This document shows, one piece after another, positions 56,488 to 56,988 of a stretch of 64,000 bases of DNA. Every line of letters begins with the position of its first letter. Within the stretch, counting starts at the first letter, position 1. The DNA is taken from NCBI RefSeq assembly GCF_056712565.1, contig NZ_CM160072.1, one strand, 5' to 3'. The notes under the pieces are model-generated. The model saw nothing but the letters and a program-made list of their open reading frames with translations, ran no database searches and was not told where the DNA came from. The position numbers and the translations under genes are program-made.

Positions 56488-56503
56488 TCTGATTACTCAA
56501 AGA

Positions 56504-56536
56504 TATGTTGTGGGAGGCTTTGCCTCCCCAACATAT
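56504..56536. other. Long near-perfect inverted repeat just downstream of the porin stop
   Basis: atatgttgtgggaggc-ttt-gcctccccaacatat, 15-16 bp arms. Confidence 0.5.
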
Positions 56537-56624
56537 AAGTGGCCCCCTCAAGCCACTTTCCTTAGAAGCACTATCTTGCTTCTGACTATATAAACCTTCT
56601 GTTATATATTACCCTTTATTTTCT

Positions 56625-56648
56625 GGGGCGTTTCAACGCCCCATTTTT
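56625..56648 (+). terminator. Rho-independent terminator downstream of the porin gene
   Basis: ggggcgtt-tcaa-cgcccc followed by ATTTTT. Confidence 0.6.
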
Positions 56649-56988
56649 AATAATACTCAGTGAACAATTAACGTATCAATTAGATTTAATAACAACGATA
56701 TCCGTACCTAACCGGATATCTAATGTCATAAGCATCCCTTTAATTATCCCCTCAACCTCTTGTAACTTTCCCACTCTTGAACTCCACATAGTCCAAACGC
56801 CGGATGCAAAAAAATCACACGTGCATTTCTGAAATTGTGATGAAGGAAGATAGTATCAATTATATGTGCTTATAAACGACCCCGATTAGCGCAGAAGTCA
56901 CCGGATTGTTCAGGCTCCAATAGGTTGAGTATGCCGTATTTATTTTCCAAAATAAAAATCGATGCTGTTGCTCCTTCATAAAATACTT

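What the first reader, a model, noticed from the sequence alone, without database searches (positions are those of the whole stretch)
56488..56988. 500-bp non-coding scar between the convergent porin and AraC-regulator genes
This is where several kb of phage genes sit in an intact DLP12-type prophage. It contains a 15-16 bp inverted repeat immediately after the porin stop (56504-56536), a second canonical terminator (56625-56648) and AT-rich sequence with no convincing ORF. Two hairpins in tandem 3' of a highly expressed porin gene could also mark a 3'-UTR-derived small RNA.
Basis: inference. Interest (0 to 1): 0.4.

Follow-up and report, generated by a model that had tools for sequence, protein, structure and literature searches.

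The report
Prophage deletion scar plus IpeX RNA
The 500-bp gap is the leftover of a decayed lambda-like prophage: its first third is a copy of the known porin-linked small RNA IpeX, and the rest is dead fragments of phage genes joined at a 1.8-kb deletion, so it is real but ordinary.

Summary
The porin gene (55405-56487, +) and the AraC-family gene ybcM (56989-57786, -) converge on a 501-bp gap, and both described hairpins are there.

All of the gap can be assigned by homology.

- **56485-56650 (+)** is the ortholog of IpeX, the 167-nt small RNA made from the 3' untranslated region (UTR) of the DLP12/PA-2 phage porin gene. It is 91.6% identical to K-12 ipeX. It folds into five hairpins, not two (z = -8.9), and the last is the intrinsic terminator.
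- **56676-56772 (-)** is the last 32 codons of the antiterminator gene quuD.
- **56772|56773** is a precise junction. The GTG start of ybcN is fused in frame to that quuD tail. Relative to DLP12, 1,782 bp are missing: ybcN, ninE, ybcO, rusA, ylcG and most of quuD.
- **56771-56873 (-)** is a dead ylcH.
- **56873-56988** holds a degraded nin-region promoter and inverted repeat.

The locus is not DLP12 itself. It is a DLP12-like relic between yedK and fliE in E. coli of the UTI89/CFT073/Nissle type. Most other E. coli share the junction but have lost the porin and IpeX.

The parts
55405..56487 (+). Intact phage-type porin gene (NmpC/Lc-like, 360 aa), whose transcript carries the IpeX 3' UTR.
   Evidence: ORF. 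RefSeq 'porin OmpC' in UTI89. NCBIfam OmpC subfamily 520.8 bits (cut-off 484) and phrog_410 full length. 86.8% identical to K-12 nmpC fragment 1.
56485..56650 (+). IpeX ortholog: the porin 3' UTR, from the stop codon to the end of the terminator T-run.
   Evidence: K-12 ipeX is 574365-574531 on the reverse strand, 167 nt (supplement of PMC8313858). That is L002 10532-10366, which aligns here at 153/167 = 91.6%. Same five-hairpin fold in both. No Rfam family matches.
56503..56536 (+).
   Evidence: 97.8% of cells paired across 36 distinct homologs.
56537..56558 (+). Hairpin H2: 7 bp, 8-nt loop.
56562..56585 (+). Hairpin H3: 9 bp, 6-nt loop. In 13 homologs an A-U pair is replaced by G-U.
56587..56608 (+). 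Hairpin H4: weak A/U-only 7-bp stem, broken (C-A) in 7 homologs, so possibly unstructured.
56609..56623 (+). Nearly invariant U-rich single-stranded linker before the terminator; candidate interaction or Hfq-binding region.
   Evidence: Invariant or nearly invariant columns in alignment A1. It overlaps the accessible region 128-142 listed for IpeX in the supplement of PMC8313858. The functional role is inferred.
56624..56648 (+). Hairpin H5 plus T5: intrinsic terminator of the porin/IpeX transcript. It works in one direction only, because no T-run follows it on the minus strand.
56651..56675 (.). Spacer between the terminator and the quuD stop codon; poorly conserved.
   Evidence: 72% identity to K-12.
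56676..56772 (-). quuD' remnant: the last 31 codons plus the stop codon (TGA, 56678-56676) of a Q21-family late antiterminator gene.
   Evidence: Translation GKLQEVEGIIKGMLMTLDIRLGTDIVVIKSN* against K-12 QuuD ...[32 protein letters not shown]. 83.8% nt identity. QuuD is related to Q21, PDB 6JNX/6P18, E = 7.6e-7.
56772..56774 (-). Deletion junction (56772|56773). The GTG start codon of ybcN/orf151 is fused in frame to the quuD tail.
   Evidence: Left homology ends at 56772 in 117 loci, and right homology begins at 56772 in dozens of loci. Three-way view against phage 82 and K-12. Phage 82 annotation of the orf33 stop / orf151 start overlap.
56771..56873 (-). ylcH' (phage 82 orf33) pseudogene. 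ATG has become ATA, there is a stop at codon 6, a +1 frameshift, and the stop codon is lost.
   Evidence: Alignment and translation. 68.9% identity to K-12.
56897..56956 (-). Degraded nin-region control elements. The -35 is TTGATT>TTTATT (56956-56951). The -10 is CATAAT>CATACT (56933-56928). The 29-nt inverted repeat (56924-56897) has lost its left arm and has a 1-nt deletion in the right arm.
   Evidence: Features annotated as putative in phage 82 X92588, aligned.
56989..57786 (-). ybcM, an AraC-family regulator gene that converges on the porin gene.
   Evidence: 90.9% identical to K-12 ybcM.

Best explanation
The gap is the internal scar of a DLP12-like lambdoid prophage that decayed between yedK and fliE. 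Only four cargo genes survive: porin, ybcM, ybcL and emrE.

**Deletion.** One illegitimate deletion with at most 1 nt of microhomology removed everything from just after the start codon of ybcN to codon ~95 of the antiterminator gene quuD. It left a dead ylcH, a 32-codon quuD tail and degraded nin-region control elements. These fragments drift neutrally.

**IpeX.** The first 166 nt after the porin stop codon are different. They are the ortholog of IpeX. This stretch is transcribed from the porin promoter as the 3' UTR of the porin mRNA and ends at the H5 intrinsic terminator. According to published work on DLP12/PA-2, it is released by processing and lowers OmpC and OmpF production post-transcriptionally. 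The porin gene here is intact, unlike K-12 nmpC::IS5. IpeX should therefore be made whenever this porin is expressed, so that production of the phage porin is coupled to repression of the resident porins.

**Shown here:** homology, coordinates, junction, fold and conservation profile.

**Taken from the literature on the K-12/PA-2 copies:** co-transcription, processing and porin repression.

**Inferred for this copy:** that it is expressed and active.
For: - **Homology map to DLP12**.
- **Exact junction** at 56772|56773 across more than 100 loci.
- **Intact arrangement in living phages.** The ybcN-ninE-ybcO-rusA-ylcG-Q-porin order is intact in phage 4A7. ev243 and mEp332 show the same RusA-YlcG-Q-porin-S-R-Rz end of the module, with different nin genes upstream.
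- **IpeX coordinates** come from the supplement of PMC8313858. [quoted passage not shown]
- **Conservation.** IpeX is 91.6% identical to K-12. That matches the selected coding sequences (ybcM 90.9%, emrE 91.9%) and exceeds the porin coding sequence (86.8%). The flanking relics are 69-84%.
- **Structure.** The five-hairpin fold has z = -8.9 and is the same in K-12. 95.8% of cells pair across 36 distinct homologs. The relic part has z = -1.4.
- **Decay.** Functional sites of ylcH and its upstream promoter and operator carry disabling changes.
- **Age of the junction.** It is shared at ~98% identity by thousands of E. coli genomes at the same locus, so the deletion is old.
Against: - No expression data for this strain were available. 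Activity of this IpeX copy is inferred from a 91.6%-identical homolog.
- The original IpeX paper (PMC1347279) is not held. Its mechanistic details come second-hand from reviews, which disagree on Hfq dependence.
- Covariation is nearly absent because the family is too conserved (1 compensatory cell). The fold therefore rests on thermodynamics and conservation.
- The hairpins are near-perfect palindromes, and the minus strand folds equally well (-62.7 against -61.0 kcal/mol). Structure alone does not say which strand matters. G-U against A-C counts lean only weakly to the plus strand (22 against 13).
- Most E. coli, including ST131-type genomes, have deleted the porin and IpeX from this locus, so the pair is dispensable.
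Confidence: 0.85

Rival explanations
1. The hairpins are only the transcription terminator and mRNA-stabilising 3' end of the porin gene. In this strain the 3' UTR has no trans-acting role, and its conservation reflects recent common ancestry or the needs of termination and stability.
For: H5 is a textbook terminator. Stable 3' hairpins commonly protect mRNAs (established knowledge). No covariation proves a selected RNA shape. The mechanism of IpeX was never resolved to a base-pairing site, according to the reviews. Most E. coli have lost the element.
Against: A single terminator would suffice, yet four extra hairpins and a nearly invariant 40-nt A/U-rich block are kept across 36 distinct phage sequences. 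The segment is more conserved than the porin coding sequence. Published experiments assign porin repression to this very 3' UTR in DLP12/PA-2.
Confidence: 0.12
2. The conserved DNA right after quuD serves the opposite strand. It would be the remnant of the phage late promoter and leader (pR'/Q-utilisation region with its terminators), and the hairpins would be late-leader structures. In the relic, a residual minus-strand promoter (TTGATA-N18-TATTAT, 56679 to 56650) would fire antisense into IpeX and the porin gene.
For: In lambdoid phages the Q-dependent late promoter normally lies just downstream of Q (established knowledge for lambda, 21 and 82). A 10-of-12 sigma-70 match overlaps the quuD' stop codon on the minus strand. 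The minus strand folds as well as the plus strand. In H4 the seven variant cells are C-A, which would be G-U on the minus strand.
Against: The hexamers are weaker and variable in the living phages (TTAATA ... AATTAT or AGTTAT, spacer 17-18), and the spacer region is only 72% conserved. None of the hairpins is followed by a T-run on the minus strand. In H1, H3 and H5 the one-sided changes are G-U on the plus strand (21 cells against 3). The promoter scan found fewer sites than shuffles give (5 against 10.4). Q and the lysis genes are absent here, so a late leader would have no function.
Confidence: 0.08
3. The junction created a new small gene. The ybcN GTG start (56774-56772) is fused in frame to 32 quuD codons, or the upstream ATG at 56789 gives a 37-aa ORF. 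Either would encode an expressed micro-protein.
For: The fusion is in frame and sits exactly on a former start codon. The ORF is listed. Its tail gives a weak PHROG hit (E = 2e-4).
Against: An in-frame outcome has a 1-in-3 chance. The upstream gene ylcH, which provided translational coupling, is dead, and the promoter upstream is degraded. The tail is a fragment of a larger fold (Q21 family). There is no NCBIfam match.
Confidence: 0.03

Closest known systems
IpeX small RNA of cryptic prophage DLP12 (E. coli K-12) and phage PA-2 (Castillo-Keller, Vuong & Misra 2006, J Bacteriol 188:576)
   Same: Same position: from the stop codon of the phage porin gene to an intrinsic terminator ~165 nt downstream, facing the end of quuD. 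It is 91.6% identical in sequence with the same five-hairpin architecture. The PA-2 lc downstream sequence matches at 88%.
   Different: The host locus differs: a yedK-fliE relic rather than DLP12 at argU or a living phage. The porin upstream is intact here, whereas K-12 nmpC is split by IS5 58 nt before its stop. There are 14 differences out of 167 aligned positions (13 substitutions and one 1-nt indel), mostly in loops, bulges and terminal pairs. Activity of this copy is untested.
DLP12 (qsr') cryptic lambdoid prophage of E. coli K-12
   Same: Same gene order and orientation: emrE-ybcL-ybcM-ylcH ... quuD-(ipeX)-nmpC, at 84-95% identity.
   Different: It is not at argU. It has no integrase, lysis, packaging or tail genes. 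It lacks ybcN through most of quuD (1,782 bp) and ylcJ-ybcK (2,083 bp). It is a separate, more reduced relic.
Intact Q-porin-SRRz modules of lambdoid phages (ev243, 4A7, mEp332)
   Same: The same Q (127 aa), ~190-bp spacer and convergent porin arrangement. The spacer matches window 56488-56772 at 86-88%.
   Different: In these phages Q is complete and is followed, beyond the porin, by holin, endolysin and spanin genes. Here only the last 32 Q codons remain, and the DNA on the far side of the porin is chromosomal (yedK).
Lambda nin5-type deletions (loss of the nin region between P/ren and Q)
   Same: The same block of the lambdoid map is lost (the nin genes upstream of Q). This comparison rests on established knowledge, not on a test here.
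   Different: nin5 leaves Q intact and the phage viable. This deletion runs into Q and lies in a relic without replication or lysis genes.
Processed 3'-UTR-derived small RNAs of enterobacteria (e.g. CpxQ, SroC)
   Same: An RNA that shares its terminator with the upstream mRNA and is released from it. This is stated for IpeX in PMC12197685.
   Different: Those RNAs act through defined Hfq-dependent seed pairing. For IpeX no pairing site is established, and the sources disagree on Hfq dependence.

Membership tests
IpeX (phage porin 3'-UTR small RNA) | Lies directly 3' of a lambdoid-phage porin gene (nmpC/lc), from the stop codon to an intrinsic terminator. | tested here: met
   The porin stop codon is 56485-56487 and the terminator is 56624-56648. 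K-12 ipeX coordinates map onto 56485-56650.
IpeX (phage porin 3'-UTR small RNA) | Sequence homology to K-12 ipeX over its full length. | tested here: met
   153/167 = 91.6% identity end to end. 93% mean column identity among 36 distinct homologs.
IpeX (phage porin 3'-UTR small RNA) | Shared secondary structure. | tested here: met
   The same five hairpins are predicted independently for the window and for K-12. 95.8% of cells pair. Covariation is too sparse to prove the structure.
IpeX (phage porin 3'-UTR small RNA) | Made from the porin promoter as part of the porin transcript and processed to a ~167-nt RNA. | not testable with these tools
   This needs RNA data. It is only stated for DLP12/PA-2 in PMC12197685.
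IpeX (phage porin 3'-UTR small RNA) | Lowers OmpC and OmpF production post-transcriptionally. | not testable with these tools
   Literature on the K-12/PA-2 copies only. One circumstantial point: in CFT073, nmpC c2348 is up and ompC is down at 37 C (PMC12890032). That c2348 is this locus is inferred.
DLP12-type lambdoid prophage (relic of) | Collinear homology to the DLP12 gene order emrE-ybcL-ybcM-ylcH...quuD-nmpC. | tested here: met
   Four collinear BLAST blocks at 85-92% identity.
DLP12-type lambdoid prophage (relic of) | Integration at argU with integrase intD (which would mean it is DLP12 itself). | tested here: not met
   The locus lies between yedK and fliE in UTI89, with no integrase annotated. 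It is therefore a DLP12-like relic, not DLP12.
DLP12-type lambdoid prophage (relic of) | Internal deletion with definable end points relative to intact relatives. | tested here: met
   The junction is 56772|56773. It removes L002 8460-10241. The missing genes are contiguous in phage 4A7.
Rho-independent terminator | G+C-rich stem-loop followed by a T-run on the transcribed strand. | tested here: met
   56624-56643, 8 bp with 6 G-C pairs and a 4-nt loop, then TTTTT. H1 (56503-56536) lacks a T-run and does not qualify.
Rfam-curated RNA family | Match to any Rfam 15 covariance model. | tested here: not met
   No match in 56488-56988, even at E <= 1. IpeX appears to have no Rfam model.

The most novel reading that the evidence does not exclude
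In the B2 lineages that kept the intact porin-IpeX pair (ST73/ST95-type: CFT073, Nissle, UTI89), the relic acts as a domesticated porin switch. Induction of this NmpC-like porin at 37 C would deliver IpeX in cis. IpeX would then repress OmpC, which would explain why OmpC thermoregulation in CFT073 is inverted relative to K-12. A minus-strand promoter left over beside the quuD stop codon might add antisense control.
Probability: 0.3. Interest if true: 0.45.

Novelty: new member of a known kind. Interest (0 to 1): 0.2.

Why it matters
The finding matters mostly for annotation. In the genomes listed that carry the full stretch, nothing is annotated under it. Yet it holds a full-length, structurally intact copy of a known porin-regulating small RNA, attached to an intact porin gene.

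That makes ST73/ST95-type strains (UTI89, CFT073, Nissle 1917) a natural setting in which IpeX is expressed from its native promoter. K-12 is not, because IS5 cuts ipeX off from that promoter. Porin balance affects antibiotic entry and envelope stress, so a ready-made test system has some practical value.

The exact junction, and the second deletion found in other lineages, also give clean markers for the stepwise decay of this prophage relic. None of this is conceptually new.

Tried and rejected
- **Rfam.** A scan of 50000-64000 at E <= 1 gave nothing in the gap. The only hit was a chance-level Ysr206 match at 58295-58561.
- **Original IpeX paper.** PMC1347279 is not held. I used coordinates from a supplement and descriptions from reviews instead.
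- **Covariation test of the five-hairpin model.** On 36 distinct homologs there was 1 compensatory cell, and the shuffles were not clearly exceeded. The family is too conserved for this test.
- **G-U against A-C counts to choose the strand.** 22 against 13, a weak lean only. Folding energies of the two strands are equal.
- **Genome-contig scan for the 20-nt IpeX core.** Four hits. One is a 99.4%-identical E. coli contig binned as Lachnospiraceae. The other three share nothing else with the locus. The scan did not return any contig labelled E. coli, so it says little about taxonomic range.
- **Minus-strand promoter as a conserved late promoter.** Its hexamers are weaker and variable in living phages, so I rejected it as the main reading.
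- **The 37-aa and 39-aa ORFs.** No family support. The 39-aa ORF's ATG is AAG in K-12 and phage 82.
- **My recollection that quuD equals phage 82 Q.** This was wrong. Q82 is 229 aa, and QuuD is distantly related to Q21.
- **Phage 434 as an independent example.** The record is 434B, a recombinant that carries DLP12's own Q-nmpC::IS5 segment.

Full report
**Observation**

The window matches E. coli of the UTI89, CFT073-relative, Nissle 1917 and ATCC 25922 type at 100% identity. In UTI89 the region lies between yedK and fliE. It is annotated as porin 'ompC', ybcM, ybcL and emrE.

The porin ORF ends at 56487 on the plus strand and the ybcM ORF ends at 56989 on the minus strand. That leaves 501 bp between them. 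The porin scores above the curated cut-off of the OmpC subfamily model, and ybcM carries an AraC-type domain.

- The first is 56503-56536, 15 pairs with one bulge.
- The second is a canonical terminator: stem 56624-56643 followed by TTTTT.

Three further hairpins lie between them. The 168-nt stretch after the stop codon folds far better than its shuffles (z = -8.9). The remaining 338 nt do not (z = -1.4).

**What the gap is made of**

BLAST against K-12 DLP12 gave four collinear blocks (locus L002).

| Window | DLP12 counterpart | Identity |
|---|---|---|
| 55067-56429 | nmpC fragment 1 and its upstream region | 85% |
| 56446-56772 | nmpC 3' end, nmpC-quuD spacer, last ~99 nt of quuD | 87.6% |
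| 56782-58502 | start of ylcH, ybcM, ybcL | 89.5% |
| 58507-58924 | emrE | 91.6% |

A comparison with 130 phage and prophage loci sharpened the junction. The left homology stops at 56772 in 117 loci, and the right homology starts at 56772 in dozens of loci.

Read on the minus strand, the GTG start codon of ybcN (orf151 of phage 82) is kept. In phage 82 that GTG overlaps the orf33/ylcH stop codon. Here it is fused in frame to the last 32 codons of quuD, giving VGKLQEVEGIIKGMLMTLDIRLGTDIVVIKSN*. At most one nucleotide of microhomology is visible.

Relative to DLP12, 1,782 bp are missing: ybcN, ninE, ybcO, rusA, ylcG and about three quarters of quuD. These genes are contiguous in living phages such as 4A7, so the deletion reading is the right one.

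The retained ylcH is a pseudogene. Its ATG has become ATA, it has a stop at codon 6, it has a frameshift, and it has lost its stop codon. Upstream of orf33, the phage 82 record annotates a putative -35, a putative -10 and a 29-nt inverted repeat. All three are degraded here.

Every base of the gap is therefore accounted for.

**The IpeX part**

A supplement of PMC8313858 lists ipeX in MG1655 at 574365-574531 on the reverse strand, 167 nt. This runs from the nmpC stop codon to the terminator, and it maps onto window 56485-56650.

Published descriptions agree on the outline.
- IpeX is a 167-nt RNA of DLP12, also found downstream of lc in phage PA-2.
- It lowers OmpC and OmpF (PMC12197685, PMC5069750, PMC8065619, PMC5745476, PMC3333887).

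The window copy is 91.6% identical to the K-12 copy and folds into the same five hairpins. The conservation profile against K-12 is informative.

| Segment | Identity to K-12 |
|---|---|
| IpeX | 91.6% |
| Porin coding sequence | 86.8% |
| ybcM | 90.9% |
| ybcL | 94.7% |
| emrE | 91.9% |
| Spacer | 72% |
| quuD remnant | 83.8% |
| ylcH remnant | 68.9% |
| ybcM-ylcH spacer | 81.2% |

IpeX therefore behaves like a sequence under constraint, and the rest of the gap behaves like decaying DNA.

Thirty-six distinct homologs were collected from IMG/VR contigs, GenBank phages and K-12. They are 93% identical per column and 95.8% of structure cells pair. That is too little variation for a covariation test.

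One-sided changes in the strong stems (H1, H3, H5) are almost all G-U on the plus strand: 21 cells against 3 cells that would be G-U on the minus strand. The weak A/U stem H4 shows the opposite pattern. No Rfam model matches.

**How it most likely works**

Transcription from the porin promoter runs through the porin gene and its 166-nt 3' UTR and stops at H5. The literature on the K-12 and PA-2 copies says the UTR is then released and reduces OmpC/OmpF synthesis post-transcriptionally.

In K-12, IS5 sits 58 nt before the nmpC stop codon and separates ipeX from the porin promoter. Here the porin gene is intact, so the RNA should accompany every porin transcript.

This step is inferred. No expression data for this strain were available. 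As circumstantial support, CFT073 raises nmpC c2348 and lowers ompC at 37 C, the reverse of K-12 (PMC12890032). I inferred that c2348 is this locus from the locus-tag order only.

**Rivals**

- **Terminator only.** The hairpins could be nothing more than a terminator and mRNA stabiliser. Four extra conserved hairpins and a nearly invariant A/U-rich block argue against this, as do the published experiments.
- **Opposite strand.** The DNA could serve as a late-promoter leader, because it lies just after Q. A 10-of-12 promoter match overlaps the quuD stop codon. However, its hexamers are weaker and variable in living phages, no T-run follows any hairpin on that strand, and Q and the lysis genes are gone.
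- **New small gene.** The in-frame ybcN-quuD fusion could encode a peptide. Its upstream gene and promoter are dead, and an in-frame outcome is a 1-in-3 event.

**Population context**

The full 501 bp occurs in 454 of 5,426 complete E. coli genomes. More than two thousand others carry only window ~56668-56988, at ~98% identity and at the same locus.

In three such genomes that I examined, a single deletion (55446-56667) removed the porin from codon 14 onward together with all of IpeX. Two of them also carry a 28-nt tandem duplication at the join. An IS200/IS605 element sits at the yedK stop codon. The quuD/ybcN junction therefore predates that split, and the porin-IpeX pair is dispensable.

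**Verdict**

The scar is a routine product of prophage decay, and the RNA is an unannotated ortholog of a known small RNA. Interest is low. Its main value is correct annotation and a natural strain background for studying IpeX.

Noticed in passing
window 55446-56667 (compared with L009, L010, L011): Many other E. coli genomes (e.g. HS, O111:H8 9662, ACN001, and by BLAST pattern ST131-type genomes such as MNCRE44) carry one shared deletion. It fuses porin codon 14 to a point 9 nt before the quuD' stop codon, removing the porin and all of IpeX. Two of the three examined also have a 28-nt tandem duplication at the join.
   Followed up: partly
window 54891 (yedK stop codon); L010/L011 ~3760-5420: In those same genomes an IS200/IS605 element (tnpA plus a TnpB/InsQ gene) is inserted exactly at the end of yedK. 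In O111:H8 it is itself interrupted by IS1203.
   Followed up: no
window 58502-58507: There is a second difference from DLP12 inside the island. The 2,083 bp that hold ylcJ and the recombinase gene ybcK (L002 4656-6738) are absent between emrE and ybcL. Whether this is a deletion here or an insertion in DLP12 was not resolved.
   Followed up: no
window 56679 to 56650, minus strand: A sigma-70-like promoter match, TTGATA-N18-TATTAT (10 of 12), overlaps the quuD' stop codon. It points into the terminator hairpin, antisense to IpeX and the porin gene. It is a better match here than in living phages (TTAATA ... AATTAT or AGTTAT).
   Followed up: partly
window 56774-56676, minus strand: The deletion fused the ybcN GTG start codon in frame to the last 32 codons of quuD, giving a 33-codon ORF. 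An ATG at 56789 extends it to 37 aa. It is probably not expressed.
   Followed up: partly
window 56697-56720: An 8-bp inverted repeat (GATATCCG...CGGATATC) lies inside the quuD coding remnant. The scan flags it as terminator-like on the minus strand. Its stem is conserved in all phage Q genes examined, while the loop varies.
   Followed up: no
window 54893-55066 and 58925-59192: The two edges of the island, next to yedK and fliE, have no DLP12 homology. No integrase or attachment-site remnant was seen. The upstream region of the porin gene is very A+T-rich (23-27% G+C at 55000-55400).
   Followed up: no
L135 (SFGN01000137.1): A contig deposited as a Lachnospiraceae metagenome-assembled genome is 99.4% identical to window 55000-57000, so it is almost certainly a mis-binned E. 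coli contig. The same genome-contig scan returned no contig labelled E. coli.
   Followed up: partly
L003 (OL657227.1, phage 434B): The deposited 434B genome carries DLP12's own quuD-ipeX-nmpC::IS5 segment, with a crossover annotated in ylcG. A laboratory phage therefore picked up the K-12 cryptic-prophage copy, IS5 included.
   Followed up: no
window 58295-58561, minus strand: A weak Rfam hit to Yersinia sRNA Ysr206 (18.1 bits against a gathering score of 124, E = 0.58) lies between ybcL and emrE. It is most likely chance.
   Followed up: no
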